This document shows positions 1,627 to 30,987 of a stretch of DNA of 64,000 nt, piece by piece (position 1 is the stretch's first letter; the number at the start of each line of letters is the position of its first letter). The notes below the pieces were generated by a model that was not told where the DNA came from, did no database searches, and was given only the letters and a program-made list of their open reading frames with translations. The stretch is from Parcubacteria group bacterium GW2011_GWA1_56_13 (GTDB lineage: Bacteria; Patescibacteriota; Minisyncoccia; Phycocordibacterales; Phycocordibacteraceae). The translations under genes were made by a program, and so were the position numbers. The stretch covers positions 24,830 to 88,829 of the forward strand of contig LCRY01000003.1 of NCBI GenBank assembly GCA_001004905.1. Direction: 5' to 3'.

Positions 1627-3585
1627 CTACATCCCGATAAGAACCGGGATGACCATCGGCGCTTTATTGGTGCGGGCGAAGAGGAACCCCGCGATGACAT
1701 CGGTCAGGTTGTTCTTCACATAATCGAGGTCGATCGGGTTCATATTGCGCGTGGAATCCTCGATGGTCTTCTTGATGAGGACGCGCGCCTCATTGAGAAG
1801 ATTCTGCGACTCGCGCAGATAGATGAAACCGCGACTGATGATGTCGGGCGACTTGCGCAGTTTCCCGGTCTTGAGGGCGACGCTCGCGATAATGACGAAC
1901 ATACCGTCCTTGGCGAGCGACTGGCGGTCGCGAATGACGACTTCCTGTATGTCGCCGATCGTAAAGCCGTCAACGACCATCGGCGCGGAAGGCACTTTTT
2001 GCTTGTGCACGTTCATCCGCTCGCCGTTCTCAATGTCGATGACCGTGCCGTTGTCCGGCACGATGATGTTCTCCTTCGGAAAGCCCGACTGTTCGACGGC
2101 CTTCGCATGGCAGCGCAGCATTGAGTGGTAGCCGTACGCGGGCATGAAGAACGTAGCCCCGACTTGCTTGTTGATCCAGACCAGCTCGCCTGTGTTGCCA
2201 TGGCCGGTCGAATGGACGTCGCTTGAGCGGTAGTGGATGAGCGTCACACCGTGACGGTAAAGATTGTCCTTCAGTTTCTGCACGGCTATCTCATTACCGG
2301 GGATGACGGAAGAGGACAGCACGATGGTGTCACGCTCGTTCAGGGTAATGTTCTTATGCTGTTCGGTGGCGATGCGCATCAGCGCCGCGAATTCTTCGCC
2401 CTGCGCGCCGGTGGAGAGAATGACGATCTTGTCCGGCGGATAATTGCCGATGTCCTGCGCGGGGATGATCGTCTCCTTCTTTATCTTGAGAAGGCCGGTT
2501 TTTTCCGCGATCTCGAGGTTGTTCCGGATGGAACGACCTTCGGTGACGATTTTTTTCCCGAGTTTTTCCGCCGCTTCCATGATGTGGATCATGCGTTCGA
2601 ACTGTGACGCGAATGTCCCAATGATGAGGCGACCGGAGACCGTCTTAATGATCTCCTCGAGCGTCTGGATGACGCGCTTCTCGGGAATGGAGAAACCGTC
2701 CTTTTCCGCGTTCGTCGAGTCGGCGATGAAGAAAATGTTTTTATCTTTGCCGATGGTGCCCCACGTCTTTACTTCATGCTCGGCGGGTACGCCATCATCA
2801 TGGTCGAGCTTCAGGTCGCCGGTGATGACGACATTGCCCTGCGGAGTCTCGACCGAAACACCCATCGAGTCGGGGATAGAGTGCGTGACCGGGAAGAATT
2901 TGACCCGAGTGCTCCCGATGGTCACGGATTGGCCGACTTCGACGGTGTGTATCTCGGATTTAGGCACGTCCGGATATTCTTCTTGCCGTCGCTGGATCAT
3001 GATACCAGTGAGATTCTGCGTATAGAGCGGAGGCGTTCCGAATCGCGGCAGTGTGAAGGGAATGCCGCCGATGTGGTCGAGATGTCCGTGAGTGATGATG
3101 ACGCCTTTCACGCGGTCGGCGTTCTTCTCCAGATATTTCGTGTTGGGGAGGATGTAATCGACCCCCGGGGAGGTATCCTCGGAAACGAATTGGAAGCCGG
3201 CGTCAAAGACGAGAATGTCGCCGGTCGCGCCCACTTCGACTGCGGTCATGTTACGGCCGACCTCTTCGACGCCTCCGAGCGGGATGATGCGGACCGTCGT
3301 TGGTCCTGCCGGTTCCGGAAAATAATCGGCGGCGCGGGGAACTCGGTTCGACTGGCTCATGGGACGGCGCAGGATGCGCTGAATGCGGCGCGACGCGCCG
3401 CCGGGGCGGGATGTTCCCCTTCCTCCTCGGTTCGAATGGCGGCCGCCTGGTTGCGAGCGGCCTCGTTCAGGCAGACCGCGCTCGAAACGCCGCGGCCCCC
3501 CCGGCCGCGGTGCACGCGATGGCGCCGGACGCGTGTATCCCGGAGTCGGTGCTGGTGCTGGTGCTGGTGCTGGTGCTGGATTCAT
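1627..3585 (-). CDS. rnj: Ribonuclease J (metallo-beta-lactamase / beta-CASP) with an Arg/Gly/Pro-rich N-terminal extension.
   Basis: HGHLDHIGG metal-binding motif; beta-CASP and RNase J C-terminal regions; 652 aa. The N-terminal ~100 aa are low-complexity (PAPAPAPAPAPTPG..RGGRG..). Confidence 0.85.
   Translation of the reverse strand: MNPAPAPAPAPAPTPGYTRPAPSRAPRPGGPRRFERGLPERGRSQPGGRHSNRGGRGTSRPGGASRRIQRILRRPMSQSNRVPRAADYFPEPAGPTTVRIIPLGGVEEVGRNMTAVEVGATGDILVFDAGFQFVSEDTSPGVDYILPNTKYLEKNADRVKGVIITHGHLDHIGGIPFTLPRFGTPPLYTQNLTGIMIQRRQEEYPDVPKSEIHTVEVGQSVTIGSTRVKFFPVTHSIPDSMGVSVETPQGNVVITGDLKLDHDDGVPAEHEVKTWGTIGKDKNIFFIADSTNAEKDGFSIPEKRVIQTLEEIIKTVSGRLIIGTFASQFERMIHIMEAAEKLGKKIVTEGRSIRNNLEIAEKTGLLKIKKETIIPAQDIGNYPPDKIVILSTGAQGEEFAALMRIATEQHKNITLNERDTIVLSSSVIPGNEIAVQKLKDNLYRHGVTLIHYRSSDVHSTGHGNTGELVWINKQVGATFFMPAYGYHSMLRCHAKAVEQSGFPKENIIVPDNGTVIDIENGERMNVHKQKVPSAPMVVDGFTIGDIQEVVIRDRQSLAKDGMFVIIASVALKTGKLRKSPDIISRGFIYLRESQNLLNEARVLIKKTIEDSTRNMNPIDLDYVKNNLTDVIAGFLFARTNKAPMVIPVLIGM
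3548..3580. repeat. Hexanucleotide repeat (GGTGCT)x5.5, encoding (Pro-Ala)n at the rnj 5' end.
   Basis: ggtgctggtgctggtgctggtgctggtgctgg is seen directly. On the minus strand it reads CCA GCA repeats. Confidence 0.8.
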
Positions 3586-3645
3586 ACTGATTGGTTGGTT
3601 ACTGGGCTTGCGAAACGAATAAATGAAACCCGTACGAAAAATGGT

Positions 3646-5367
3646 TCAGCGGCTGCGGTTAGCGAAGAACGGCCACACAGCATCGGTCGAGCGATACCAG
3701 GATGCTGCGGTCGCAAAGCGGTCGGCGGGTACGATGATCTGCGGAAGAGTGACGCCGGAGAGATCTTTCGGCACTGCATACGTGAAATCCGGCGCGTAAA
3801 TGAACGCGGCGGGATACTCGGCGGCGATGATGTCCTCGATCTTTTGAAGATCGTTCGTCCGCTTCGCGTCATCGGTCGAACTGCGGACGTTCGCAAGCAG
3901 AGCATCGACGGTTTTGTTCGCGTACAGCGCGATATTCAAACCGGGGTCATTGCGCTCATGCGAATCCCAAAATGCATAGAGGTCCTGGTCGCGGCCGATG
4001 ACCATGCCATAGAGCAGCGCTTCGTATTTGCGCGGTCGGATGATGTTTTGCGAAAGGTCGCCCGATTCATAGAGCTCGATAGTGACGGGGATACCGAGTT
4101 TCTCCCAATCCGCCTTTACGGCGCTCGCGACGCTTTTGAGCTCAGGTACGTTCGAAGTGCGCAGGGTGATGCCGTCGAGGGTCTGTTTGATGCCCGTATT
4201 CTTCCAGACGCGGTCAGAGCCGTCGTACGTCCATCCTGCCGCTTCAAGTACGCCGGCTGCTGCCATCGTCGGGTTCTGAAGTGCCGGAACCGGCGCCTGT
4301 CGCACCGATCCTCCCGGCGGGACCGGTCCCATGATGGCGGTCGCATACCCGCCGAATATCGAATCAACGATCGCCCGCCGGTCGAGCGCGAGCGAGAGCG
4401 CCTTGCGCACTTCGCTCCGCGCGTACACCTGCTTCTCGCTCGGGTTCCAAAACACGCCGAAGACCCGCGCGTACGGAGCAGTCAGCGCCCCTTTGTATGC
4501 AACGTCATATGCGCTCTCGATGTCCCCCTTGATAAGCGCGTTCGTCAGGTCCCCCGCCCGCGAATAGAAGTTGAAGCGGATTCGGTCGAGATAGGGCCGG
4601 CCAAACACGTAATAGGGATTTGCGGCGAGCGTCACATTCTCGATAAGCCCGGAAATGCCGCGCGAAACGTCCGCAACCTTAAAGGGTCCCGCGCCCACCG
4701 GGTTTGCTTGCAGGGTAGAGAAGGGGAATTCCTCGTCCGAAAGGTTTCTCCAGAGCCTGGCGGGGAGGATCCCGAGGGTCGTGAGCCCGAGGAACGGCGC
4801 ATAGGGCTTTGTGAGCGTGAAGCGCACGGTGCGTTGGTCCACCGCGACGACCAGCACGCCGGACCAGTCGGCATACCTCGGGCTCTTGAGCGCAGGGTCC
4901 TGCGCTTTCTGCACCGTGAAGACAACATCATCGGCATCTACTGGCGTGCCGTCCGAGAATTTCGCATTCTCGCGCAGAACGAAGGTATAGCTCTTGCCGT
5001 CAGGCGACGCTTCGTAGCTTTCCGCGAGCACGGGGACGAGCTCTCCCGTCCCGGAGATACCCATGAGGCCCGCGTAGGTGAGCGACGAGAGGTCGCGGTC
5101 CGCGTCGCTGATGGCAAGCAATGGATTGATGAACCGCGGGCTTCCTATCTCGCCTTCGACCAAAGTCCCTCCATAGGTAGGCACTTCCACGAGAAGCGAC
5201 TGTTCGAGGGCGTAGAGGCCGGAAAGCGAAGCGATGCAGACAAGACCTGCCAGAAGATAAAAGAGCACACGGTCTCCCGAGGACAGAGAGCGCACATGAG
5301 CGCCCGCGCGCTCAAGCGCCGGTATGCTCCGCCAGCGCTTGAGTTTCTCGCGCGTCTCGTCGTTCAT
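3646..5367 (-). CDS. ABC transporter substrate-binding protein, family 5 (peptide/nickel type), N-terminally membrane-anchored.
   Basis: 573 aa. N-terminal TM helix, then a family-5 solute-binding-protein-like domain. The 3' end overlaps secG by 4 nt. Confidence 0.7.
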   Translation of the reverse strand: MNDETREKLKRWRSIPALERAGAHVRSLSSGDRVLFYLLAGLVCIASLSGLYALEQSLLVEVPTYGGTLVEGEIGSPRFINPLLAISDADRDLSSLTYAGLMGISGTGELVPVLAESYEASPDGKSYTFVLRENAKFSDGTPVDADDVVFTVQKAQDPALKSPRYADWSGVLVVAVDQRTVRFTLTKPYAPFLGLTTLGILPARLWRNLSDEEFPFSTLQANPVGAGPFKVADVSRGISGLIENVTLAANPYYVFGRPYLDRIRFNFYSRAGDLTNALIKGDIESAYDVAYKGALTAPYARVFGVFWNPSEKQVYARSEVRKALSLALDRRAIVDSIFGGYATAIMGPVPPGGSVRQAPVPALQNPTMAAAGVLEAAGWTYDGSDRVWKNTGIKQTLDGITLRTSNVPELKSVASAVKADWEKLGIPVTIELYESGDLSQNIIRPRKYEALLYGMVIGRDQDLYAFWDSHERNDPGLNIALYANKTVDALLANVRSSTDDAKRTNDLQKIEDIIAAEYPAAFIYAPDFTYAVPKDLSGVTLPQIIVPADRFATAASWYRSTDAVWPFFANRSR

Positions 5368-5603
5368 GACCCCGCAAGAAGGAAGTTCGCTATCGCAGCG
5401 AGTACGAGGAGCAGCGCGATAACGATGGTCGCGTTGAACAAAAATTTTTCGGCGCCTCTGCGCTTGTAAAACGTTGACGCGAAGTTATCGCCTCCGAAGG
5501 CTCCGCCGAGGGTCGCGCCGCGCTGCTGCAGCACGATGCCGACGATGAGGAGTATTGAGAGGATGATTTCCGCGTACGGCAGTGCCGATACGAGTGCCTC
5601 CAT
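5364..5603 (-). CDS. secG: Preprotein translocase subunit SecG.
   Basis: MEALVSALPYAEIILSILLIVGIVLQQRGATLGGAFGG..., a two-TM SecG signature. Start refined to the internal Met; cat at 5601-5603. Confidence 0.75.
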   Translation of the reverse strand: MEALVSALPYAEIILSILLIVGIVLQQRGATLGGAFGGDNFASTFYKRRGAEKFLFNATIVIALLLVLAAIANFLLAGS

Positions 5604-5706
5604 CTTGATTGGGATGGTACCACGGCGGGGGAATGGGGCGCAAGCCAGTGTGTAAAGAAAACAGAACGCCGCGAGGTTCCCCGCGGCGCCGGACTGATTC
5701 CTTGTG

Positions 5707-6138
5707 CTACTTTTTTGCAGACAGCGCTTCGGCCGGTGCGGCGACGGCGACCGGTTTGCCGATAGCGACCGGTTGGCCGTCGACCAGGGCGAAGTACTCT
5801 GACGGCGGGGCCGGCGCCTTGACGCGGATTGCAAGAAACTGCTTTTTCACGACCCCTTTCACGAGAAGAACCTGATCCCCCCCGTCCTCGGTGGACGAGA
5901 TGACCTGGTACGCCGTCCCTTCCTTGAGCCGTGCCGTGAACTCCTCGGCTGAATACGGAATACGCCCGTAGCCGAACCCGTTGGGACTGAAGATTGCAGT
6001 GCCGAATACCACCAGAGCGAATGCCGTCAATATCCAGGGGAGAATGGAACCCACCTCTTTTTTCCCGGAGAGAACAACGGCTACCACCGTGACAATGACA
6101 CCGATAATGAAAAGAAACGTGACGTCCAACATGCCCAT
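5707..6138 (-). CDS. Hypothetical membrane protein (2 TM plus an extracytoplasmic beta-rich domain).
   Basis: The N-terminal half is hydrophobic; the C-terminal half is an Ala/Pro-rich soluble domain. No family recognised. Confidence 0.4.
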   Translation of the reverse strand: MGMLDVTFLFIIGVIVTVVAVVLSGKKEVGSILPWILTAFALVVFGTAIFSPNGFGYGRIPYSAEEFTARLKEGTAYQVISSTEDGGDQVLLVKGVVKKQFLAIRVKAPAPPSEYFALVDGQPVAIGKPVAVAAPAEALSAKK

Positions 6139-6323: not shown

Positions 6324-6629
6324 ATGGCTAAAAAGCTTTCGCTTGTGCCGCTCGGGGACCGCGTGGTCGTGGCGCCCGCCGACAAAGAGGGCGAGAAGAA
6401 ACTCGCCTCCGGCATCATCATTCCCGAGACGGTGGACAAAGAGAAGCCGGCGAAGGGCGAGGTCATCGCCGTCGGCCCGGGCAAATACGAAGACGGCAAG
6501 CGCATCCCGCTCCAGGTCAAGGTCGGCGATACCGTGCTCTTCAGCAAGTATGGCTACGACGAAGTGAAGATCGAAGGGCAGGAGTACTACATCCTCTCGG
6601 AGTCCAGTATTTTAGGTATCGTTAAATAA
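6324..6629 (+). CDS. groES: Co-chaperonin GroES.
   Basis: [54 protein letters not shown]...; 101 aa, immediately upstream of groEL. Confidence 0.95.
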
Positions 6630-8273
<1,644 letters not shown>

Positions 8274-8310
8274 TTGGCCGGCCGCTCATAGCGGATAGCG
8301 TATAGAAAGA

Positions 8311-8338
8311 GAAAGGCCCTGTGATACGGGGCCTTTCT
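8311..8338 (+). terminator. Hairpin downstream of groEL (weak intrinsic terminator).
   Basis: gaaaggccc-tgtgatac-gggcctttc stem-loop. The U-tract is short. Confidence 0.4.
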
Positions 8339-8540
8339 CGTCGGCGCGCTGGTCAGGGAAGCGTGCCGAGCGTGTGCCGCACGATGAATTGTTGTTGTTG
8401 GAAAAGGAATGCGCCGAACCGGTGCCGAAGGGTCTCCCACACCCCCCGTGCGATTTCGGAAGGTATATCGCCGTCGTTGCTGCGGTCTTTTCCCATCGCC
8501 ATCTTCCTCTTTATCGCGGGAATGTCAATTCGGTTCGGAG

Positions 8541-9053
8541 CTACCAGGAACTGCACGCGGGCTCGCCGCTACAAAGCATCCACGACCAGGTCGGGCGCAC
8601 CGGATCATAAAATGGCTGCCCCACGGCGGGGTAGCTTTCGGGAGTACCGTGCACCAGGAGCTTGTAATTCGTACCGTCGGAATTGTACAGATAGCCGTTG
8701 CAGCTCCCCGGTGCGGCCGGGTCGGTCGGGAGTACGGATATATATTTCGGCGTCAGCCCCCTAATATAGGCCTCCGCACCGCTCGTCTGTCCATTGCCCG
8801 GACCGCAGGGGACAGTGCTTACTCCGCTCCACGCTCCCGGGTGCGGCAACGGATAGGACCCATTGTCGACGTAGTACATGACGATGGCCGTCCGCAACTG
8901 CACCATGTCCTGCACGCGCTTCGTGTCCCGGGCTTTTATCCGCGCTCCGTTGAGGGTCCCGACGACGATGCTCGAAAGTATGCCGATGATGGAGATGACG
9001 ATCAGCAATTCGACGAGCGTAAATCCCCGGGCGCGCCTGTGTGCGTTGGTCAT
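8541..9053 (-). CDS. Type IV pilin-like protein (orphan, outside the main pilus cluster).
   Basis: Prepilin leader MTNAHRRARG|FTLVELLIVISIIGILSSIVVG, with the class III signal peptide and N-terminal hydrophobic helix. Start refined to 9053. Confidence 0.7.
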   Translation of the reverse strand: MTNAHRRARGFTLVELLIVISIIGILSSIVVGTLNGARIKARDTKRVQDMVQLRTAIVMYYVDNGSYPLPHPGAWSGVSTVPCGPGNGQTSGAEAYIRGLTPKYISVLPTDPAAPGSCNGYLYNSDGTNYKLLVHGTPESYPAVGQPFYDPVRPTWSWMLCSGEPACSSW

Positions 9054-9057
9054 ATCG

Positions 9058-9399
9058 TCAGATCTTTTCCAGGCGGGGCGGCGCGTTTGGGGGGTAGAGT
9101 ATCTTCTGCCCCGGCGGCGCTTTGAAAGTGGCATTACCGCCGTTGCCAAAGAGCATCATTCCCATGACAATGGCCAGCACTGCGATGAACGCGATAAGCA
9201 CGTACGCTATCTGCTTCTCGTTCTTGAGAAGGCCGCCGGAATGCTGCAGTATCCACAGAGTCGCTTTCGACGGCTCCGCGTAGGACACCCGACTCGGCTG
9301 CTGCCATTGCTCCTCTTCAAACTGCACTTTTGGGGGTTCATTCAGCGGGTCCATGGGTGCGGGGGTCTCCTGATGCTTCAATGGTAGCACCCGCCGCAC
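9058..9399 (-). CDS. Hypothetical small single-TM protein, upstream of and co-oriented with the orphan pilin.
   Basis: 113 aa, one TM helix (IAYVLIAFIAVLAIVMGMMLF). No family recognised. Confidence 0.35.
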   Translation of the reverse strand: MRRVLPLKHQETPAPMDPLNEPPKVQFEEEQWQQPSRVSYAEPSKATLWILQHSGGLLKNEKQIAYVLIAFIAVLAIVMGMMLFGNGGNATFKAPPGQKILYPPNAPPRLEKI

Positions 9400-9447
9400 A
9401 TGCCGGAGGGCCCCCGGTGGAGAATCGGATGCTTCGCGGAAAGTTAT

Positions 9448-9567
9448 GCCGGCAAGGACGATGCGGCTTCCGCCGCCGCGCTCCTTCTTACCACCGAAGC
9501 GGCAGTCGCTGACATCCCGGAGTCGAAAAAGGAAGCACCCGCAGGAGAAATGGGGATGGACTACTGA
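9448..9567 (+). pseudogene. Truncated duplicate of the groEL 3' end (C-terminal ~39 codons).
   Basis: The gccggcaaggacgatgcgg...ttccgccgccgcgctccttcttaccaccgaagcggcagtcgctgaca segment is near-identical to groEL 8010-8030 plus 8166-8215. It reads [39 protein letters not shown] and is followed by its own terminator. Confidence 0.75.
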
Positions 9568-9576
9568 AAATAAAAA

Positions 9577-9600
9577 GCCCGTGCTCGCGGGGCTTTTGTT
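9577..9600 (+). terminator. Intrinsic terminator after the groEL fragment.
   Basis: gcccgtgctcgcggggc hairpin followed by ttttgtt. Confidence 0.55.
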
Positions 9601-9658
9601 CTGCAGCGAGATAAAAGAGAAAGCCCGCCGGAGCGAGCTGTCTCGCGCGGCGGACTCC

Positions 9659-9940
9659 TTAAGAAGATCCTTTCTTTCGCAATTCCTCCATCAGCAGCAA
9701 GAGACAGCCGGCAGTGAAGACACCGGGAACGATGTAGAAGAGGATAGTGAATCCCATCGCGGCGAACGCCATCTCCCTGTCGAAGCAGCCGCGCTCCAGG
9801 GCGTAGCAGGCCCTGCTCATCTCCAGGATGGCCGCATCTACTCGCGCGGTTCCCAGATACCCGAAAAGGAGCCAAAGCAACACGGCTCCTATGCATATCC
9901 CTGCCACGCTTACAACGACGGCGACCGTTTTCTTCGTCAT
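9659..9940 (-). CDS. Hypothetical membrane protein.
   Basis: Two or three TM helices. Start taken at MTKKTV; the ORF could extend to 10021. Confidence 0.35.
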   Translation of the reverse strand: MTKKTVAVVVSVAGICIGAVLLWLLFGYLGTARVDAAILEMSRACYALERGCFDREMAFAAMGFTILFYIVPGVFTAGCLLLLMEELRKKGSS

Positions 9941-10055
9941 GCGCCTTCCCCTTATCTGTCGTGAATGGCCATCCGGTAAGGATGGATCAAATTTCCTGGG
10001 TTGAGTGTAGAATACTATCAATCACTTGTCAAGTGGCCGCCGCTCACCATACCGC

Positions 10056-10775
10056 CTACGGCTGTTCGTTGTAGGAGACGACTTCCCAGCCGCGCGTGGG
10101 CGACAGTATCTTCCACGGGTGGAATTCGCAGGTGGTGATGCCCGCGTTATCGGATACGTTAAAGAAGGAGAGCTTCACGAAATCGGCGGAGTGAAGGCGT
10201 TCGCGGTAGAGCAGGTACGCGATGAGCATTTTGAGAAAATGGTGGTGGGTAACGACCACGGTCTCGCGCGTGCCCTGGCGAGCGAGCAGGGCGAGGCATT
10301 TGCGCGCCCGCTTTTTCAGGTCGATGAAATTTTCCTCGTCGGAAAAGCGGTAGTCGTCGCCGTGGTACGCGAGGTCCATCTGGTCAACGATACGGATGAC
10401 GTCGGGGTCGCGGGTCGGCTTGCCGACGATTTCCGACGGATTTCTGCGCTCCGCGAAGAGCGGGGAATAGATGATGGGAACATTCAGGTGTTTTTTGAGG
10501 ATATCCGCGGTCTCGCGTGCGCGGGGATACGTACTCGAGATGATGCGCTCTATGGGGAGGCGCTTGAGGACTTCGCCCACTTTCTCCGCCTGATGCCGGC
10601 CGTCCTCGGAAAGGCCTCCTTCCGGGCCTTGCCGGATGTGCTGCGCATTCAAGAGCGTCTCGCCGTGGCGGACGAAATAGAACCGCCGCGTTCGCATGAA
10701 AAAGAACAGGAGTGCGAGCGCGACGAGCGCCAACAGCGGCGAAAGGGCGGAGGCGAGCGCGGAGAGGGGGAGCAT
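10056..10775 (-). CDS. Histidine phosphatase family protein (PGAM/SixA-like) with an N-terminal TM anchor.
   Basis: RFYFVRHGETLLN (RHG catalytic motif), ...STYPRARETA..., and a conserved His near the C-terminus (VVVTHHHFL). Confidence 0.7.
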   Translation of the reverse strand: MLPLSALASALSPLLALVALALLFFFMRTRRFYFVRHGETLLNAQHIRQGPEGGLSEDGRHQAEKVGEVLKRLPIERIISSTYPRARETADILKKHLNVPIIYSPLFAERRNPSEIVGKPTRDPDVIRIVDQMDLAYHGDDYRFSDEENFIDLKKRARKCLALLARQGTRETVVVTHHHFLKMLIAYLLYRERLHSADFVKLSFFNVSDNAGITTCEFHPWKILSPTRGWEVVSYNEQP

Positions 10776-20435: not shown

Positions 20436-21052
20436 TGTGCGAGGGCGAGCGGAAGGATATTGTTCGCGCCGGCCTCTCGAAGCGCGTCAATGGCGGCTTG
20501 AAGCGTCGCGCCGGTGGTAACGACGTCGTCGATGACGATGTAAAGGCGCGCGGGCGCGGCGGCGCCCGCGCGGAACGCCTCGCGCATATTTTCCTCCCGC
20601 GCGGCGCGTGGCAGCGATACCTGTGACGCCGTCTCGCGAACGCGCTCAAGAAGCGATGGAAGAACCGCGCCACCCCATTTTTCGCCGAGCTCCGCCATCG
20701 CGCCGTTCACTATTTCCTCCACCTGATTGAAGCCGCGCTCGAAACGCCGCTTTTTACCAAGCGGAACCGGCACGAGCGCGGGCCCCGCGCGTCCGTACGG
20801 CACATCGGCTTCCCGCACGTAGTCGGCGAGCGCGCTGGAGAGCAGACGCAATGCGCGCTCACTGCCGTGATACTTCGCCTCATGAATGACCGCCCGCACC
20901 CGTGCGTCGGAGAACGGGAAAAGCGCAACCGTGCCCGGGCGCGTCATCGGCACGAGGCGCGGCGAAAGAAGCGAGAAAAAAGCATCGTCGGAAAAGTCCC
21001 GGAGCGCGACCTCGTCCACACGCGGCGGGAACAGGAAGTCAAGAAAACGCAT
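20432..21052 (-). CDS. comFC: ComF family protein (ComFC-like phosphoribosyltransferase-domain competence protein).
   Basis: PRTase motif LYIVIDDVVTTGATL at the C-terminus; ComFC-like N-terminal region; 206 aa. Confidence 0.7.
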   Translation of the reverse strand: MRFLDFLFPPRVDEVALRDFSDDAFFSLLSPRLVPMTRPGTVALFPFSDARVRAVIHEAKYHGSERALRLLSSALADYVREADVPYGRAGPALVPVPLGKKRRFERGFNQVEEIVNGAMAELGEKWGGAVLPSLLERVRETASQVSLPRAAREENMREAFRAGAAAPARLYIVIDDVVTTGATLQAAIDALREAGANNILPLALAH

Positions 21053-21066
21053 GGTATCATTCTCTC

Positions 21067-22149
21067 ATGTCGCTCCTCGATTCTCTCTTCGGGAAGAAGG
21101 AAAAGAGCGTGCTGGGCGTGGATATTGGCTCCTCGTCGCTAAAAGTCGTGCAGCTGCGCAAGGAAAAAGGGAAGGCGGTGCTCGAAACATACGGCGAACT
21201 CGCACTCGGTCCGTACGGAGGAAGCGAGGTGGGGCAGGCGACGAACCTTTCCGCCGAACAGATCACCGAAACGCTGAAAGACCTTCTGCGCGAGGCGAAA
21301 GTAACGACGAAAAATTGCGCCGTCTCCATACCGTTCGCCCGGTCGCTCCTCACCCTCGTCGAATTGCCGTACCGCGCCGACCCGAAAGAACAAAAAACCG
21401 TCATCGAACTTGAAGCGCGCAAGTATATCCCGGTGCCCATGAGCGAAGTACAGCTCGATTGGTTCATCGTTCCAAGCGCGGGTTCGCCCACCGAGAAGGC
21501 GAGTGCTTCCGCGGGGAAAACCGTCGAGGTACTCCTCGTCGCGGTCCATAACGACGAGATATCCCTTCTGCAGAAAGTGATAGACGGCGCAGAACTCCAC
21601 TCCACGTTCTATGAAATAGAGATCTTCAGCACCATACGGGCGGTGGTAGACGAGCCGGTCAAACCGGTCATGGTCATCGACGTCGGGGCGGCTTCCACGA
21701 AGGCCTACGTCATCGAACACGGGGTCGTGGCACTCTCGCATTCGATAGCGACCGGAAGCCAGGACATCACGCGCGCCATCGCCATTTCCGGCAATTTCTC
21801 CATTGCACAGGCCGAGGCGCTGAAGAAGAAGGAGGGTCTCGCCGGGGACGACACGCTCGGCTCGCCGGAGCTTGTGTTCTCGCGCATTTTCTCGGAGGTG
21901 CGCCGCGTGCTCATACAGTATGAGACGGCGCATCAGAAATCGGTTACTTCCATCATATTCACCGGCGGCGGCGGGGTCACCAAGGAGCTCGGCATATACG
22001 CGAAAAAGACCTTCTCCATCGATGTGCGCATCGCGGACCCGTTCCTAAAGACGGAAGCGCCCGCGTTCATGCGGCCGGTGCTGGAGGGGATCGGCCCCGA
22101 ATTCGCGGTGGCCGTCGGTCTCGCGCTCCGCAAGCTCGGAGAAACGTAA
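21067..22149 (+). CDS. pilM: Type IV pilus assembly protein PilM (actin-like ATPase fold).
   Basis: VLGVDIGSSSLKVVQL...; 360 aa. Start refined to MSLLDSLFGKKEK at 21067. Confidence 0.85.
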   Translation: MSLLDSLFGKKEKSVLGVDIGSSSLKVVQLRKEKGKAVLETYGELALGPYGGSEVGQATNLSAEQITETLKDLLREAKVTTKNCAVSIPFARSLLTLVELPYRADPKEQKTVIELEARKYIPVPMSEVQLDWFIVPSAGSPTEKASASAGKTVEVLLVAVHNDEISLLQKVIDGAELHSTFYEIEIFSTIRAVVDEPVKPVMVIDVGAASTKAYVIEHGVVALSHSIATGSQDITRAIAISGNFSIAQAEALKKKEGLAGDDTLGSPELVFSRIFSEVRRVLIQYETAHQKSVTSIIFTGGGGVTKELGIYAKKTFSIDVRIADPFLKTEAPAFMRPVLEGIGPEFAVAVGLALRKLGET

Positions 22150-22212
22150 TCCTTCCACTTTTACACAGGCGTCGCACCCCTTCCTTGCGGAAGTGTCGTA
22201 TACTGAACGGAA

Positions 22213-22794
22213 ATGGCTCTTCCTCCGACCATACCGACGTCGTTCGTTCCCCATCCGACCGGAGCGGCTCCGCGCAGGTTCCGCGCAGACCTCACCGGCG
22301 CGTTCGATTTTTTCGCTTACGGCGTTCTCGGCTTCGTTTTCATACTCGCGCTCGGAGTTTTTCTCTACGGGCGCGTCCTTGCCGCGGATAAACTCGCAAA
22401 AGACGCGAAGGTCAGCGCCGCGTTGACATCGATAGACCTGGAGACGGTTGATGATTTCGTGCGGCTGCGCGACCGTTTGACGTCCGGCCAGGTCCTGCTT
22501 GAGAAGCACATGGCGTTCTCGACGCTCTTCGCGGCGCTCGAGAAGCTCCTGCCCGCCACCGTCCGTTTCACTTCGCTCCGCCTCTCGATCGACTCGAGCG
22601 GTGCCACAAGCATGGAGGGTTCCGGCGTTGCGAAAAGCTTCAATGCGCTTGCCGCCACCTCCGCCGCGTTCGCGCAGGATGGCCGCATCAAAGATGCCAT
22701 CTTTTCCAACATAACCGTCAACGCGAAGGACAGTTCCGTCAGCTTCACGCTTTCCGCCATGCTCGAGCCGGACATCACCGCCTTCACGCCATGA
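22213..22794 (+). CDS. pilN: PilN-like pilus assembly protein (bitopic).
   Basis: One N-terminal TM helix (FFAYGVLGFVFILALGVFLYG) and a periplasmic coiled-coil/ferredoxin-like domain. Position directly after pilM. Confidence 0.55.
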   Translation: MALPPTIPTSFVPHPTGAAPRRFRADLTGAFDFFAYGVLGFVFILALGVFLYGRVLAADKLAKDAKVSAALTSIDLETVDDFVRLRDRLTSGQVLLEKHMAFSTLFAALEKLLPATVRFTSLRLSIDSSGATSMEGSGVAKSFNALAATSAAFAQDGRIKDAIFSNITVNAKDSSVSFTLSAMLEPDITAFTP

Positions 22795-23354
22795 ACAGTC
22801 ACCTCCTCCCCATCCTCGCGCTCATGATCGCCGTCGGCATCTTCTTCGTCTACGTACATCCGACCTGGTCCGGTTCCATAGCGCTCACCAAGCAGGCCAT
22901 CGCGACCGACGTTCAGGCACTCGCCGCCGCGGACGAATACAAGGCGAACCAAAATGCGCTCGCCGCCGCGCGGGACGCCATTGATCCGGCGAATCTCGAG
23001 CGCCTGAAGATCTTTCTTCCCGATTCGGTGGATAATGTCGGGCTCATTCTCAACATCAATGCGCTTGCGGCGCGCTCGGGACTTTCTCTCTCGAACATTG
23101 ACGTCGCGAAAGGCAGTTCGATGGGCAACAGCGAGACATCCGGCGCGGCCGCCCTGCCGACCGACGAGGCGAACCCGGTCGGCTCGATCGATCTTTCGCT
23201 CTCCGCAGTCGGCTCCTACGCGGCGCTACAGGCATTTCTCGCCGGCCTCGAAAAAAGCGCCCGTCTCCTCGATATCCGCGACATCACGGTCAAAGGCTCC
23301 GACACGGGCGTCTACAACTACCAGATGACCGTACGCCTCTATTGGCTGCGCTAA
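22791..23354 (+). CDS. pilO: PilO-like pilus assembly protein (bitopic).
   Basis: N-terminal TM helix (LLPILALMIAVGIFFVYV) then a coiled-coil. 4-nt overlap with pilN. Confidence 0.5.
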   Translation: MNSHLLPILALMIAVGIFFVYVHPTWSGSIALTKQAIATDVQALAAADEYKANQNALAAARDAIDPANLERLKIFLPDSVDNVGLILNINALAARSGLSLSNIDVAKGSSMGNSETSGAAALPTDEANPVGSIDLSLSAVGSYAALQAFLAGLEKSARLLDIRDITVKGSDTGVYNYQMTVRLYWLR

Positions 23355-23364
23355 TGACATTACG

Positions 23365-23664
23365 ATGAAATCAAACACCATCACTCTCATCGTCCTGACA
23401 CTCCTTGCCGCCGCGGCCGCGTACTGGTTCTTCTTTTCCGGGTCCGGCAACGAACCGCCCCTGACGGTCGCAATCTCCACCGAGAGCGAGGCCCAGGCGC
23501 GATTTCAGGCGTTGGCGAGCGAACTCCAGCCCCTTACGTTCGATACGGGCATTTTCTCCGAAGCGCGTTTCTTGGCGCTCGTGGATATCACGACTCCCGT
23601 CACACCCGAAACGGCGGGGCGCCTTGATCCCTTTGCTCCCGTTCCCGGCGTCAGCGCAAAATGA
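23365..23664 (+). CDS. Small secreted/anchored protein, possibly PilP-like.
   Basis: 99 aa with an N-terminal hydrophobic segment; context between pilO and pilB only. Confidence 0.3.
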   Translation: MKSNTITLIVLTLLAAAAAYWFFFSGSGNEPPLTVAISTESEAQARFQALASELQPLTFDTGIFSEARFLALVDITTPVTPETAGRLDPFAPVPGVSAK

Positions 23665-23667
23665 GTA

Positions 23668-25446
23668 ATGAACCTTCTCGGACTACTCGTCGATAAAGGC
23701 CTTCTCCCAGTAAAGGAACGTGCCGCGGTCGAGGCGGAAGTCGCGAAGAACCGCCCGCTTGCCGACGTGCTCGCCGAACACAATGTGTCGCTCACGGACG
23801 CCCTTGCCGAAGCGGGGAAGGCGTACGGGCTTCCCGTCCGCACCCTCGGCGATCCGCCCGCCGATGAAGCCGTCTTCCAGTACATCCCGATCGACTCCGC
23901 GCGCCACTACGGATTCGTGCCGCTCGCCATGGCCGATGGAGCGCTTGAGATCGGCATAACCGACCCGGACAACATAGAGGCGCTCGACGCGCTCCAATTC
24001 ATCTCGGGGAAGATAGGCATTCCGTACAAGATATTCCTCATCACGGAACAGGATTTCGACCGCGTTATCGATACGTACCAGAACATCTCCGGGGAGATCG
24101 GCAGAGCGCTCTCCGAATACGATACGACCGCCAAGCCCCCGGTCGCGCAGGGCGCGCCGCCCTCTCCCGATGCGGGTGGGCCGCTCTCCGAGGAGGAGGC
24201 GCTGAACCTGGCCGGCTCACGCGAGAGCCTGAAGGAGGATGCGCCGGTGACGAAGATCGTTTCCACGATACTGCGCTACGCCATCGACGGACGCTCGTCC
24301 GACGTTCATATTGAGCCATCGCCGACGAAAACGCGCGTCCGCTTCCGTATGGACGGCGACCTGCACACATCACTTGAATTGCCGACGAAAGTGCACGAGG
24401 CGGTCGTCGCACGCATCAAGATCCTCGCGAAGCTGCGTCTCGATGAGAAGCGCAAGCCGCAGGACGGGCGCTTTTCGGCGACGGTGGAGAATCGGCGCAT
24501 CGATTTCCGCGTCTCGACATTCCCGACCGAATACGGCGAAAAGGTCGTGATGCGCATCCTCGACCGCTCCGATGCGACGGCGACGCTTACCTCGATCGGG
24601 TTGTCGAACACACAGCTCGCGGCGATCCGCGACATGATGAAAGTCCCGTACGGCATCATCCTCATCGCGGGACCGACCGGTTCGGGCAAGTCCACGACCC
24701 TCTTCGCCATGCTTTCCGAGACCGATCGCGAAACCGAAAACGTCGTATCGCTCGAAGATCCGGTCGAATACGAGATCCCGGGTGTCGCGCAGAGTCAGGT
24801 ACGGCCGGAGATCGACTACACATTCGCCAACGGACTCCGTTCCATCCTGCGGCAGGACCCGGACGTCATCATGGTCGGCGAGATACGCGACAAGGAGACG
24901 GCCGTGCTCGCGGTACAGGCCGCGCTCACCGGCCACCTCGTGTTTTCTACCATCCACACCAATACCGCGGTGGGAGCGATCCCGCGCCTCATTGACATGG
25001 GGGTTGACCCGTTCCTCATCGCGCCGACCCTCATCTCCGTCATCGGACAGCGCCTCGTGCGCAAGCTCTGTCCCGGCGCGGGAAAAGCGTTCCCGGCCAA
25101 GGACAGCATCAAAGTATTTTTGGAGCGGCAATTCGCCGATCTGCCATCCGAATACCGCAAGACGCTGCCCGTCTTTAAGGAGTTCTATCATGCGGCTCCG
25201 ACGGCCGAGTGTCCGAACGGCACGCGCGGTCGTACGGGCGTTTTCGAGATCTTGCGCATGAACAAAAGCCTCGAACAAGTCGTGCTTAAAGAACCGGTCG
25301 AGGAGAACATCTACGCCGCCGCCCGCGCGGGTGGCATGCTCACCATGCGCGAAGATGCGATCGTGAAAGCGCTTCGGGGTGAGATACCCTTCGAGGAGGT
25401 CAACACGCTCGGCGGGGAACTTTTCCCCGAAGGGGACGTCGCCTGA
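23668..25446 (+). CDS. pilB: Type IV pilus assembly ATPase PilB (GspE family).
   Basis: Walker A GPTGSGKST; Asp box; His box (VGEIRDKETAVLAVQAALTGHLVFSTIHTN); N-terminal GSPII domain. Confidence 0.9.
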   Translation: MNLLGLLVDKGLLPVKERAAVEAEVAKNRPLADVLAEHNVSLTDALAEAGKAYGLPVRTLGDPPADEAVFQYIPIDSARHYGFVPLAMADGALEIGITDPDNIEALDALQFISGKIGIPYKIFLITEQDFDRVIDTYQNISGEIGRALSEYDTTAKPPVAQGAPPSPDAGGPLSEEEALNLAGSRESLKEDAPVTKIVSTILRYAIDGRSSDVHIEPSPTKTRVRFRMDGDLHTSLELPTKVHEAVVARIKILAKLRLDEKRKPQDGRFSATVENRRIDFRVSTFPTEYGEKVVMRILDRSDATATLTSIGLSNTQLAAIRDMMKVPYGIILIAGPTGSGKSTTLFAMLSETDRETENVVSLEDPVEYEIPGVAQSQVRPEIDYTFANGLRSILRQDPDVIMVGEIRDKETAVLAVQAALTGHLVFSTIHTNTAVGAIPRLIDMGVDPFLIAPTLISVIGQRLVRKLCPGAGKAFPAKDSIKVFLERQFADLPSEYRKTLPVFKEFYHAAPTAECPNGTRGRTGVFEILRMNKSLEQVVLKEPVEENIYAAARAGGMLTMREDAIVKALRGEIPFEEVNTLGGELFPEGDVA

Positions 25447-25558
25447 CCCCGTGAGATACATAATCCCGATTTTTCATCGAATCCCCGTTATTGTCTTTTC
25501 CCCATGTGGGCGCCGCACGCGGTAACGCAAAGGTATCTCACGAGGTATACTTTTTACG

Positions 25559-25969
25559 ATGGCTTACCGCGTCTATCTCGTTGATGATGACCGATTCTTA
25601 CTCGACCTGTACGCGATCAAATTCCGCGATGCCGGTCATGAGGTAGCCGTATTCAGCGGCGGCGAGGACCTTCTTGCCGCGCTCCGAAAGGAAAGCGCGC
25701 CGGTTCCCGACGTCATTCTGCTTGACCTCATCATGCCGGGGATAAGCGGTTTTGAAACACTTGAAACGATACGGAAGGAGCGTCTCGCGAAGGGTACGAA
25801 GATAGTCATTCTTTCCAATCAGGGCCAGGACTCCGATATCGAGAAAGCGAAACAGCTTCAGGCCGACGGCTACATCATCAAGGCGTCCGCGATCCCTTCC
25901 GAAGTATTTGCCGAGACCCTGCGCACTATCGAGGGAGGTCGTTCCGCCGCTACCGGGGGAATATCATGA
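25559..25969 (+). CDS. Single-domain response regulator (CheY/PilH-like) embedded between pilB and pilT.
   Basis: VYLVDDD...DVILLDLIMPGISGFETL...KIVILSNQ...ADGYIIK. Overlaps the pilT start by 4 nt. Confidence 0.8.
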   Translation: MAYRVYLVDDDRFLLDLYAIKFRDAGHEVAVFSGGEDLLAALRKESAPVPDVILLDLIMPGISGFETLETIRKERLAKGTKIVILSNQGQDSDIEKAKQLQADGYIIKASAIPSEVFAETLRTIEGGRSAATGGIS

Positions 25970-27027
25970 TCGCCGATAAGCGCCTCGGAGAACTTCTGGA
26001 TATCGTCGTCAAAGAAGGCGCTTCCGATGTTCATATTTCCGCCGCCGGTCCGCCGGTCCTGCGCGTGGCGGGCACGCTCATTCCCGTCGCGAAACATCCG
26101 GCGTTTTCGAACGAGGACACCGAAGCGATGCTGAAAAGCATCGTCCCCGAAGAGCGCTGGAATTCGTTCCGGGCGAACCAGACCATTGACCTGTCCTATG
26201 CGCATAAAGCGGATGCGCGCTTCCGCGTTAACGGTTACCGCGCGCAGGGGTCGGTCTCGCTCTCGCTCCGGCTCATCCCGCATGCGATCCAGACGTTCAC
26301 CGAACTGAACCTTCCTCCCGTGCTTGAGGTATTCACCCAACGCGAACAGGGGTTCTTCCTCTGCGTGGGGCCGGTGGGGCAGGGCAAATCCACGACGCTC
26401 GCCGCCATGATCAACCGCATCAACGACTCGCGGGCAGAGCACATCCTCACTATCGAGGATCCGATAGAATATCTCTTTCCGCAGAAGAAATCCCTTATCC
26501 ACCAACGCGAAGTCCACATCGACACGCCCGATTTCCATACTGCGCTCCAAAGCGCGTTCCGCGAAGACGTCGATGTCATCATGGTCGGCGAGATGCGTGA
26601 TTACGAGACCATTTCTTCGGCGGTAACCGCCGCCGAGACCGGTCACCTCGTCTTCTCGACGCTTCACACAAATAACGCCGCGCAGACCATCGACCGCATC
26701 ATTGACATGTTCCCCGCCGAACAGCAAGGTCAGGTGCGCGTACAGCTCGCCGGCTCCCTGGTCGGCATCTTCTCCCAGCGGCTCATCCCGCGCGTCTCGG
26801 GCGGACTCATTCCCGCGTATGAGCTTCTGATCAACAACAATGCGGTCGGCACCTTGATACGCGACGCACGTACGCACGAGATCAGTGCCATCGTCCAAAC
26901 CTCGTCGGAGGAGGGCATGATCGACATGGACCGTTCGCTCGCCGACCTCGTACACCGAGGGGAAGTGACGGTCGAGCACGCCTACGAGCATTCGATGGAT
27001 CCGAAGACCTTCGAGCGCTATCTCTAA
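25966..27027 (+). CDS. pilT: Twitching-motility / pilus retraction ATPase PilT.
   Basis: GPVGQGKSTT Walker A; Asp and His boxes (IMVGEMRDYETISSAVTAAETGHLVFSTLHTN); 353 aa. Confidence 0.9.
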   Translation: MIADKRLGELLDIVVKEGASDVHISAAGPPVLRVAGTLIPVAKHPAFSNEDTEAMLKSIVPEERWNSFRANQTIDLSYAHKADARFRVNGYRAQGSVSLSLRLIPHAIQTFTELNLPPVLEVFTQREQGFFLCVGPVGQGKSTTLAAMINRINDSRAEHILTIEDPIEYLFPQKKSLIHQREVHIDTPDFHTALQSAFREDVDVIMVGEMRDYETISSAVTAAETGHLVFSTLHTNNAAQTIDRIIDMFPAEQQGQVRVQLAGSLVGIFSQRLIPRVSGGLIPAYELLINNNAVGTLIRDARTHEISAIVQTSSEEGMIDMDRSLADLVHRGEVTVEHAYEHSMDPKTFERYL

Positions 27028-27029
27028 AT

Positions 27030-28235: not shown

Positions 28236-28311
28236 GGGACTATCCACACCTTGCTTCCTTAGGGAGCGCTCTAGGCGCTATAATCCAGCTATTAGCCGCA
28301 TACAACATACC

Positions 28312-28773: not shown

Positions 28774-28796
28774 TCTACGTCTCACACCGGAGAATT

Positions 28797-29330: not shown

Positions 29331-29414
29331 CAGGATTCTTCTCCGAAAGCGGCCTCGTTGAGAACGGCGTAGCCGTCATCTCGCGAGGCCGCTTCGCGTT
29401 ATACTGAAAACCGC

Positions 29415-30910: not shown

Positions 30911-30987
30911 CCACCATGAACTACCATCGAGGATACACCCAGCACCAAAGCTTCGTTAAGAATGTTGGTGGCGTTCGAACGACAAAA

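What the first reader, a model, noticed from the sequence alone, without database searches (positions are those of the whole stretch)
8278..9600. Orphan pilin cassette inserted at the groEL 3' end and flanked by a duplicated groEL tail
About 1.2 kb downstream of the groEL stop there is a second, truncated copy of the last ~39 codons of groEL at 9448-9567. It is near-identical at DNA level, carries a small internal deletion, and has its own terminator. Between the two copies lie two minus-strand genes: a type IV pilin (8541-9053) and a small single-TM protein (9058-9399). A duplicated target segment flanking foreign cargo is the footprint of an insertion or recombination event that regenerated the groEL 3' end. 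This would be a pilin gene mobilised as a cassette, separate from the main pilus locus.
Basis: seen in the sequence. Interest (0 to 1): 0.7.

Follow-up and report, generated by a model that had tools for sequence, protein, structure and literature searches.

The report
Recombination scar duplicating the groEL tail
A Kaiserbacteria genome carries a leftover second copy of the end of its groEL chaperonin gene beside a pilin gene pair; this is best read as the scar of a one-sided recombination that stacked two versions of the same locus, not as a mobile pilin cassette.

Summary
groEL (6639-8273) is followed 1.2 kb downstream by a 122-nt groEL remnant (9446-9567) with its own terminator. A pilin gene and a small membrane-protein gene lie between the copies.

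The remnant is a mosaic. Its first 70 nt are identical to groEL 8008-8029 plus 8168-8215, with 138 nt (46 codons) missing. Its last 54 nt are only 72% identical, mostly through synonymous changes, so it is a different functional groEL tail.

More distant relatives have groEL followed directly by the His_Phos gene. Two closer lineages (L087; L109/L110/L111) already carry the pilin pair at this same site, directly abutting His_Phos, with no remnant, second terminator or ORF 9659-9940. The duplication therefore does not mark the pilin insertion.

The junction is a 6-8 nt microhomology (GCCGGC). It joins the His_Phos terminus of the pilin-bearing arrangement to an internal groEL site.

Best explanation: homology-facilitated illegitimate recombination stacked two alternative versions of the groEL-to-His_Phos interval. 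Two later deletions followed.

There is no integrase, inverted repeat, tRNA or phage link. This is a known kind of scar, of modest interest.

The parts
6324..6629 (+). groES (Cpn10)
   Evidence: Pfam Cpn10, E = 2e-29. Syntenic in all 80 related loci.
6639..8273 (+). Full-length groEL (544 aa). Segments 8008-8029 and 8168-8273 are the ones repeated downstream.
   Evidence: Pfam Cpn60_TCP1, E = 1e-70. Repeats shown.
8216..8273 (+). The working groEL tail (..[19 protein letters not shown]). It belongs to the pilin-bearing version of the locus. The inferred homologous crossover or haplotype boundary lies just upstream, around 8200-8215.
   Evidence: Against the remnant there are 0/70 mismatches upstream of 8215 and 15/54 plus 2 codon indels downstream (Fisher p about 1e-6). 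The end of the tail plus its downstream region (8261-8500) is 86% identical to L109, which has the pilin-bearing arrangement.
8309..8339 (.). Terminator 1: a strong two-way hairpin after the working groEL.
   Evidence: 14-nt arms (I8). MFE -32.8 kcal/mol, z -6.6 on the plus strand and z -5.4 on the minus strand. It matches the hairpin after groEL in L109/L111.
8353..8496 (-). 3' remnant (47 codons) of 'geneY', a 194-210 aa gene of unknown function. In L054, L109 and L111 geneY lies intact just after the groEL terminator.
   Evidence: tblastn of L054 geneY residues 179-206 against window 8442-8359: 61% identity, E = 6e-7. The L087 flank matches the geneY N-terminus at E = 6e-9. L111 carries an intact 194-aa copy. 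No Pfam family.
8492..8500 (.). Junction of a 509-nt deletion that removed the 5' two-thirds of geneY and the hairpin downstream of the pilin gene. The deletion lies between imperfect repeats CCCnTCGCC.
   Evidence: The L087 alignment starts at 8492 and the L109 geneY-side alignment ends at 8500. The three sequences are shown side by side.
8541..9053 (-). Type IV pilin gene (170 aa), with leader MTNAHRRARG followed by FTLVELL.
   Evidence: Pfam N_methyl, E = 4e-9. 453 relatives found in Patescibacteria metagenomes, the closest outside this species at 73-79% identity.
9058..9354 (-). Small single-TM protein (98 aa), the conserved upstream partner of this pilin.
   Evidence: The same gene pair is found in L087, L088-L099, L109-L111 and L019. 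Alignment A3 shows invariant motifs S.G..K.E.Q..Y, a TM segment, and AP.G.K..YP...PPRL. No Pfam family.
9443..9453 (.). The illegitimate junction, TTATGCCGGC. It matches the stop codon and last codons of His_Phos in the pilin-bearing arrangement (L087: TTACGCCGGC|TGTTCG). It also overlaps groEL 8008-8015 (ATGCCGGC), giving a 6-8 nt microhomology.
   Evidence: Side-by-side junction sequences. The L087 alignment ends at 9453 and resumes at 10059.
9446..9567 (+). groEL 3' remnant: 22 nt (equal to 8008-8029), a 138-nt in-frame gap, then 100 nt (48 identical nt followed by a diverged tail ..IPESKKEAPAGEMGMDY*).
   Evidence: Of the 11 changed codons in the tail, 7 are synonymous or stop-to-stop.
9574..9595 (.). 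Terminator 2: a weaker hairpin plus T-run of the AAAAAGCCCCGCG..CGGGGCTTTTG type found after groEL in related species that lack the pilin pair.
   Evidence: -14.5 kcal/mol. Comparable terminators in L007, L034 and L054.
9659..9940 (-). ORF 'p93' (93 aa, predicted membrane protein). It has no relatives and is part of the 605-nt segment specific to this genome.
   Evidence: The only hit among 5.8 billion proteins is itself. It is absent from all related loci. All 15 contigs that carry it show the same arrangement.
10056..10775 (-). His_Phos (histidine phosphatase) gene, the ancestral convergent neighbour of groEL.
   Evidence: Pfam His_Phos_1, E = 1e-30. It lies 6-100 nt from the groEL stop in at least 15 related species.

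Best explanation
The locus is a tandem fusion of two alternative versions of the interval between the groEL 3' end and His_Phos.

Version D, seen in L087 and L109-L111, reads: groEL tail(D), terminator 1, geneY, pilin, small gene, His_Phos. Version R, the ancestral type, reads: groEL tail(R), terminator 2, (p93), His_Phos.

Most likely sequence of events:
1. A linear DNA fragment of version D entered a cell carrying version R.
2. The fragment paired homologously within groEL, and the exchange resolved near position 8200-8215.
3. Its other end stopped within the last codons of the donor's His_Phos and had no homologous partner. It was joined illegitimately at the microhomology GCCGGC to groEL position 8010-8015 of the recipient.

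The resulting groEL is recipient sequence up to about 8215 and donor sequence in its last 58 nt. It is followed by the donor's terminator, geneY, the pilin gene and the small gene. After those come the recipient's own groEL sequence from codon 460 onward, its terminator, p93 and His_Phos.

This is the product expected of homology-facilitated illegitimate recombination (HFIR), as known from natural transformation. Two later deletions removed 138 nt inside the now useless groEL remnant and 509 nt of geneY. The geneY deletion lies between short repeats. The remnant is a pseudogene fragment with no function of its own.

Shown directly: the repeat, its mosaic structure, the junction sequences, and the arrangements in relatives. 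Inferred: the direction of transfer, the crossover position, and DNA uptake as the route.
For: 1. The repeat is real and reproducible across independent assemblies.
2. The identity pattern is mosaic: 0/70 mismatches, then 15/54 plus two in-frame codon indels (Fisher p about 1e-6). Related species are at most 81% identical in this DNA. The identical part is therefore a same-genome duplicate, while the tail is a different allele.
3. In the diverged tail, 7 of 11 changed codons are synonymous or stop-to-stop, and both indels are whole codons. Both tails therefore evolved as working groEL ends, rather than one decaying after a simple duplication.
4. The junction shows a 6-8 nt microhomology. groEL reads CAATGCCGGC|AAGG, the window reads GTTATGCCGGC|AAGG, and L087 reads GTTACGCCGGC|TGTTCG, where that sequence is the His_Phos ..NEQPA-stop terminus.
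5. L087 (95.3% identity over 8492-9453) and L109/L110/L111 (91.5% in the flank) carry the pilin pair directly against His_Phos, without window positions 9454-10058.
6. Terminator 1 and the geneY remnant are orthologous to the region downstream of groEL in L109 (86% identity; local alignment score 55 against about 16-22 for the other comparisons). Terminator 2 resembles the terminators of species without the pilin pair.
7. There is weak phylogenetic incongruence. L087 is closest to the window in the pilin pair, yet has 4/33 mismatches in the His_Phos end, where L111 has 0/31.
8. [quoted passage not shown] It has been invoked for orphan 3' remnants at T6SS and Rhs loci (PMC5361080).
Against: - No genome with the postulated intact version R (groEL ending ..EAPAGEMGMDY, terminator 2, p93, His_Phos) was found. 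p93 and that tail occur only in this arrangement.
- The groEL genes of the L087 and L109 lineages could not be recovered: L087 has none and L109 has 13 nt. The crossover near 8215 is therefore inferred only from comparing the two copies within this genome.
- L109, the closest lineage by flank identity, already has the pilin pair. A gain in the common ancestor followed by a reverse-direction event is about as parsimonious on the tree.
- The 138-nt deletion has no microhomology and needs a separate event.
- The incongruence in the His_Phos end rests on about 30 nt.
- Natural transformation has not been demonstrated for this organism.
Confidence: 0.6

Rival explanations
1. Same mechanism, opposite direction. 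The genome's ancestor already had the pilin-bearing arrangement, as in L087 and L109. A fragment from a strain without the pilin pair (groEL tail, terminator 2, p93, His_Phos) then came in. It was anchored homologously in His_Phos and joined illegitimately at GCCGGC just past the His_Phos stop.
For: The two closest lineages both have the pilin pair without the remnant. On the tree this suggests that the 605-nt segment is the newcomer. The junction microhomology fits this direction equally well.
Against: An incoming groEL fragment from another lineage should differ from the resident groEL along its whole length. Instead, the first 70 nt are identical and only the tail differs. Rescuing this model needs either a same-species donor whose sequence diverges only from about 8215 onward, or later gene conversion on both sides of the 138-nt gap.
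Confidence: 0.2
2. A mobile pilin cassette, either an integrative element or a circular intermediate, inserted site-specifically into the groEL 3' end. It carried a replacement 3' end, so the two groEL tails are attL/attR-like target duplications.
For: Direct repeats of a gene's 3' end flank two genes absent from that site in more distant relatives. The pilin pair does sit at unrelated sites in other Patescibacteria.
Against: - The interval has no integrase, recombinase or transposase. There are no terminal inverted repeats, no tRNA, no GC shift and no viral relatives.
- Sister lineages carry the same pilin pair at the same site with no repeat.
- The right-hand repeat is followed by 490 nt found only in this genome, and its left end coincides with a relic of the His_Phos terminus.
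- The repeats are not equivalent att sites. One lies inside groEL, with 138 extra nt.
Confidence: 0.05
3. A purely within-genome event. A replication template switch or slippage copied pieces of the genome's own groEL 3' end to the site downstream of the pilin pair, and the copy then decayed.
For: The 70 identical nt come in two blocks from non-adjacent groEL positions, which resembles serial template switching. Microhomology is present at the junction.
Against: - Decay of a fresh copy cannot give 0/70 followed by 15/54 mismatches.
- It also does not explain an excess of synonymous changes, whole-codon indels and a conserved stop position.
- Terminator 2 and p93 are not copies of anything else in the window.
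Confidence: 0.08
4. Assembly or binning artefact: two strain variants collapsed into one contig.
For: Some contigs break at the repeat (L114 ends inside the remnant), as expected for repeated sequence.
Against: The identical arrangement spans both copies in contigs from four sources and several assemblers. One is a 1312-nt contig seen in 6 samples that runs from inside the groEL tail into the remnant.
Confidence: 0.02

Closest known systems
Homology-facilitated illegitimate recombination (HFIR) products, described in Streptococcus pneumoniae, Acinetobacter baylyi and Pseudomonas stutzeri (definition in PMC3240628; primary papers cited there and in PMC5361080)
   Same: There is one homologous anchor (here within groEL) and one illegitimate junction at a few bases of microhomology (here GCCGGC). 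The result is a net insertion of DNA that has no partner in the recipient.
   Different: - This case is inferred from a natural metagenome-assembled genome, not produced experimentally.
- The illegitimate joint lies upstream of the end of the anchor region, so part of the anchor gene is duplicated rather than recipient DNA deleted.
- The host is an uncultivated Kaiserbacteria (CPR) bacterium for which transformation has not been shown.
Orphan 3' gene remnants and displaced downstream genes at T6SS effector-immunity, Rhs and CDI loci (PMC5361080)
   Same: A new module arrives with its own version of the 3' end of a conserved gene. The old 3' end, together with its downstream gene, is pushed further along and kept as an orphan.
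   Different: - The conserved gene here is a housekeeping chaperonin, not a polymorphic toxin.
- There is a single displacement, not an array.
- The displaced piece (groEL tail plus p93) has no evident selective value, unlike retained immunity genes.
Integrative elements that regenerate the 3' end of their target gene (phages and islands at tRNA, tmRNA or protein-gene 3' ends)
   Same: A duplicated 3' gene segment lies on either side of the extra genes, and the target gene stays intact.
   Different: - There is no integrase and no equivalent att repeats.
- Sister lineages carry the cargo at the same site without the repeat.
- The junction is a microhomology with a neighbouring gene's terminus, not a recombinase core site.
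Silent pilin cassettes (pilS) used for antigenic variation in Neisseria (from my own knowledge)
   Same: A pilin gene lies away from the main pilus machinery locus.
   Different: The pilin here is complete, with its own leader peptide and a conserved partner gene. No partial, promoterless pilin copies were seen. The repeated DNA is groEL, not pilin.

Membership tests
HFIR-type recombination product | A homologous anchor at one end of the inserted DNA | tested here: inconclusive
   The two groEL copies are identical up to 8215 and diverged after it, which fits an exchange inside groEL.
HFIR-type recombination product | An illegitimate junction at a short microhomology (a few bases) at the other end | tested here: met
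   GCCGGC (6 nt, or 7 of 8 with the flanking A) is shared by groEL 8008-8015, window 9446-9453 and the His_Phos terminus in L087.
HFIR-type recombination product | The inserted DNA is absent from the recipient-type locus | tested here: met
   At least 15 related species have groEL directly next to His_Phos, without geneY, pilin or the small gene. The exact recipient-type genome was not found.
HFIR-type recombination product | Arises from linear DNA taken up by natural transformation | not testable with these tools
   There is only circumstantial evidence: the window encodes a type IV pilus machinery (PilM, PilB, PilT, PilC, prepilin peptidase).
Site-specific integrative element or cassette | A recombinase (integrase or transposase) in or next to the cargo | tested here: not met
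   The ORFs between 8274 and 10055 are a pilin, the small TM protein, the geneY remnant, the groEL remnant and p93. None has a recombinase domain.
Site-specific integrative element or cassette | Equivalent direct repeats (att or target-site duplication) bounding the cargo wherever the cargo occurs | tested here: not met
   L087 and L109-L111 carry the cargo at the same site with no repeat. Elsewhere the pair is flanked by unrelated genes. No inverted repeats flank it.
Type IV pilin (class III signal peptide) | N-terminal methylation motif: Gly at -1, Phe at +1, Glu at +5, then a hydrophobic helix | tested here: met
   The sequence reads RARG|FTLVELLIVISIIGILSSIV. Pfam N_methyl, E = 4e-9, above the curated cut-off.
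GroEL (Cpn60) applied to the second copy | A full equatorial, intermediate and apical domain architecture of about 540 aa | tested here: not met
   The copy covers 40 codons only: groEL codons 457-464 plus the last 33. It has no Pfam hit. It is a gene fragment.

The most novel reading that the evidence does not exclude
The scar is a natural footprint of transformation-type, one-ended recombination between lineages of an uncultivated CPR bacterium. Under this reading it exchanged a surface pilin module at a variable spot next to an essential gene. That would be direct genomic evidence that Kaiserbacteria take up and integrate foreign DNA in the wild. The displaced terminator 2 would then also uncouple the pilin pair from read-through transcription out of His_Phos.
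Probability: 0.3. Interest if true: 0.5.

Novelty: new member of a known kind. Interest (0 to 1): 0.3.

Why it matters
The finding gives a well-resolved natural example of how one-sided recombination leaves a duplicated gene tail next to newly placed genes. It occurs in a group of bacteria (CPR/Patescibacteria) that cannot yet be grown and whose means of gene exchange are largely inferred.

It also serves as a caution. A repeated gene end flanking 'cargo' does not by itself indicate a mobile element. Here the closest relatives show that the cargo was already at the site and that the repeat belongs to a separate event.

It does not reveal a new kind of genetic system.

Tried and rejected
- Mobile-element reading: I looked for recombinases, inverted repeats, tRNA targets, a GC shift, Rfam RNAs, phage protein families and viral contigs. 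All were negative.
- Search for closer groEL relatives: nothing lies between 92% and 100% protein identity. None of the 17 GroEL sequences fetched (12 from the query's 126-member cluster plus the five top hits) ends in the remnant's tail.
- Search for the postulated pilin-less parent through p93: p93 has no relatives, and every contig carrying it shows the window's arrangement.
- Metagenome scan with the pilin: it gave only short contigs at 79% identity or less, with no groEL or His_Phos context.
- My first 'groELtail' query was in the wrong frame, and its hits were ignored. A first codon comparison was also out of frame and was redone.
- I considered that L087 derives from the window type by a deletion between CGGC repeats. 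I rejected this because the independent L109-L111 lineage has the same remnant-free junction, and because L087 keeps the geneY 5' end that the window lacks.
- I considered a Campbell-type insertion of a circle. It predicts that the identical 70 nt come from two different lineages, which fits less well than linear HFIR unless donor and recipient were the same species.
Full report
**What is in the sequence**

The window comes from a Kaiserbacteria (Patescibacteria/CPR) genome. The same sequence occurs in GCA_003531405.1. Identical proteins are filed under the Rifle groundwater genomes GW2011_GWA1_56_13 and GW2011_GWB1_57_6.

The annotated features in order are:
- groES at 6324-6629 and groEL at 6639-8273 (Pfam).
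- A strong two-way terminator hairpin at 8309-8339.
- On the minus strand, a type IV pilin gene at 8541-9053, with a canonical G|FTLVE leader.
- Upstream of the pilin, a 98-aa single-TM protein gene at 9058-9354.
- A groEL fragment at 9446-9567.

The fragment consists of 22 nt identical to groEL 8008-8029, followed directly by 100 nt that correspond to 8168-8273. Both exact blocks occur exactly twice in the window and never in shuffles. A weaker hairpin plus T-run follows at 9574-9595. Beyond it lie a 93-codon minus-strand ORF (9659-9940) and the convergent histidine-phosphatase gene (10056-10775).

The arrangement is 100% identical in contigs from four independent sources, including contigs that run from one copy into the other. 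It is therefore not an assembly artefact. GC content across the interval matches the surroundings.

**The repeat is a mosaic**

The first 70 nt of the copy (22 + 48) have no mismatch to groEL. The remaining 54 aligned nt have 15 mismatches and two whole-codon indels (Fisher p about 1e-6). In that diverged tail, 7 of the 11 changed codons are synonymous or stop-to-stop, and the stop codon sits at the equivalent place.

This is how two working versions of the same gene end differ from each other. It is not how a fresh copy decays. groEL DNA of the nearest other species is at most 81% identical here. The 70 identical bases are therefore a duplicate made within this genome, or from a near-identical one, while the tail is a different allele. 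The 138 nt (46 codons) missing between the two blocks are an in-frame deletion without microhomology.

**What relatives show**

Eighty groEL loci from related species were fetched. In at least 15 of them, with GroEL 77-92% identical, the groEL stop lies 6-100 nt from the stop of the convergent His_Phos gene, with one terminator between. None has the pilin, the small gene, the remnant or the 93-codon ORF at this site.

Three closer sequences change the picture.

L087 is 95.3% identical to window 8492-9453. In it, the pilin pair runs straight into the His_Phos stop, and window 9454-10058 (605 nt: most of the remnant, terminator 2 and the 93-codon ORF) is absent.

L109, L110 and L111 are 91.5% identical to the window across DUF1097, the response regulator and His_Phos. 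Their order is: groEL end, terminator, a 194-aa gene ('geneY'), pilin, small gene, His_Phos. They too have no remnant.

Window 8261-8500 is 86% identical to the corresponding L109 stretch. The 47-codon ORF at 8353-8496 is the 3' end of geneY. geneY is intact in L111, and in L054 it lies immediately after the groEL terminator.

Compared with these lineages, the window differs in two ways:
- It has lost 509 nt of geneY, between imperfect repeats CCCnTCGCC at 8492-8500.
- It has gained 605 nt to the right of the pilin pair.

The groEL repeat therefore does not bound the pilin pair as cargo.

**The junction**

The four relevant sequences line up as follows:
- groEL: CAATGCCGGC|AAGGACG
- window at 9443: GTTATGCCGGC|AAGGACG
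- L087: GTTACGCCGGC|TGTTCG, where this is the His_Phos ..NEQPA-stop terminus
- the window's own His_Phos end: CCTACGGC|TGTTCG

The sequence to the left of 9453 is thus continuous with the pilin-bearing arrangement, right up to the last codons of its His_Phos. The sequence to the right is groEL from position 8016 on. The two are joined at a 6-8 nt microhomology.

**Most likely mechanism**

Two alternative versions of the groEL-to-His_Phos interval have been stacked in tandem by one illegitimate joint plus ordinary homologous exchange. This is the outcome defined for homology-facilitated illegitimate recombination (HFIR; PMC3240628).

In the reading I favour, incoming DNA of the pilin-bearing version paired within groEL and the exchange resolved near 8200-8215. 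Its free end was joined at GCCGGC to groEL position 8010-8015 of a recipient that had the ancestral, pilin-less version. One event then accounts for four observations:
- the duplication itself;
- the 100% identity upstream of 8215, where both copies are recipient sequence;
- the allele-like divergence downstream, where donor sequence faces recipient sequence;
- the position of terminator 2 and the 93-codon ORF next to His_Phos.

Terminator 1 and its spacer are clearly orthologous to L109. Terminator 2 resembles the terminators of pilin-less species.

One weak additional point supports this direction. L087 is the closest sequence in the pilin pair, yet it has 4/33 mismatches in the His_Phos end, where L111 has 0/31.

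The deletions in the remnant and in geneY are later decay.

**Rival explanations**

*Opposite direction.* A pilin-less fragment may have entered a pilin-bearing genome. This is favoured by tree parsimony, because both closest lineages carry the pair. It then needs a same-species donor or later gene conversion to explain the 70 identical bases. I give it 0.2.

*Mobile cassette with att-like duplication.* This is contradicted by the absence of any recombinase, inverted repeats, tRNA or viral link. It is also contradicted by the repeat-free sister loci. I give it 0.05.

*Within-genome template switching followed by decay.* This does not fit the mosaic or the synonymous pattern. I give it 0.08.

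*Assembly artefact.* This is excluded in practice (0.02).

**The pilin pair itself**

The pilin and its small partner form a conserved two-gene unit in many Patescibacteria. Pilin identity is 73-79% and partner identity 38-53%. The partner has an invariant C-terminal AP.G.K..YP...PPRL motif.

The unit sits in unrelated neighbourhoods in other genomes:
- between a ClpB-like gene and RNase Y in L088;
- next to the ATP synthase operon in L092;
- on the far side of His_Phos in L019.

Over long time spans the pair does change place, but nothing marks it as a self-mobile element. It lies 12 kb from the main pilus machinery locus of this window, which spans 20.9-32 kb and includes PilM, PilB, PilT, PilC, several pilins and a prepilin peptidase.

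**Comparison with known systems, and verdict**

The scar works like experimental HFIR products. It also resembles the orphan 3' remnants and displaced downstream genes described at T6SS, Rhs and CDI loci (PMC5361080). It differs in involving a housekeeping chaperonin, a single displacement and a CPR host.

It is a new example of a known kind of recombination scar, not a new system. The interest is modest. The value lies in the clean junction anatomy, in the hint that transformation-like recombination operates in an uncultivated lineage, and in the caution that a duplicated gene tail beside 'cargo' need not mean a mobile element.

What remains unproven is the direction of transfer and the existence of the pilin-less parent. 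Neither it nor the groEL of the sister lineages could be recovered.

Noticed in passing
window 8353-8496 (-); L054 2154-2786 (-); L111 1114-1698 (+): A 194-210 aa gene of unknown function ('geneY', no Pfam or PHROG family) lies directly after the groEL terminator in some relatives. In the window it is reduced to its last 47 codons by a 509-nt deletion between CCCnTCGCC repeats. The ATG of the leftover ORF was created at the deletion junction.
   Followed up: partly
window 9659-9940 (-): A 93-codon ORF predicting a small membrane protein has no relative among 5.8 billion proteins and none in 80 related loci. It may be a lineage-specific gene or non-coding DNA that happens to be open.
   Followed up: partly
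window 9058-9354 (-); alignment A3: The small single-TM protein is a conserved upstream partner of this pilin type across Patescibacteria. It has an invariant cytoplasmic motif S.G..K.E.Q..Y, a TM helix, and a C-terminal AP.G.K..YP...PPRL motif. It belongs to no Pfam family, and its role in pilus biology is unknown.
   Followed up: partly
window 20902-32048: This is the main type IV pilus locus. It holds PilM (20902-22149), a PilB-like ATPase (23668-25446), a PilT-like ATPase (25966-27027), PilC (27030-28235), several pilin-like genes (about 28350-29330 and 30143-32048) and a prepilin peptidase (29415-30176).
   Followed up: partly
L019 7693-9482: In this related species the pilin and small-protein pair lies on the other side of His_Phos (order: groEL, His_Phos, pilin, small gene), next to a PilM-like gene. 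The pair's position varies around this neighbourhood within the clade.
   Followed up: no
window 9574-9595 compared with L007, L034 and L054 downstream of groEL: Terminator 2 has an imperfect stem (GCCCGTG..CGCGGGGC; -14.5 kcal/mol), whereas the homologous hairpins after groEL in relatives are perfect. This fits relaxed selection on the displaced terminator.
   Followed up: partly
L002 about 3460-4250 (GCA_003531405.1), corresponding to window about 5364-6138: In the NCBI assembly the SecG-like gene and the neighbouring 141-aa gene are called as one 261-aa product. The SecG match is split by a 1-nt shift there, whereas other assemblies keep two genes. This is probably an indel or a sequencing error.
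   Followed up: no
L109 3102-3712: The geneY copy in L109 matches in two frames and is called as 148 aa, whereas L111 has an intact 194-aa version. This suggests a frameshift or an assembly error in L109.
   Followed up: no
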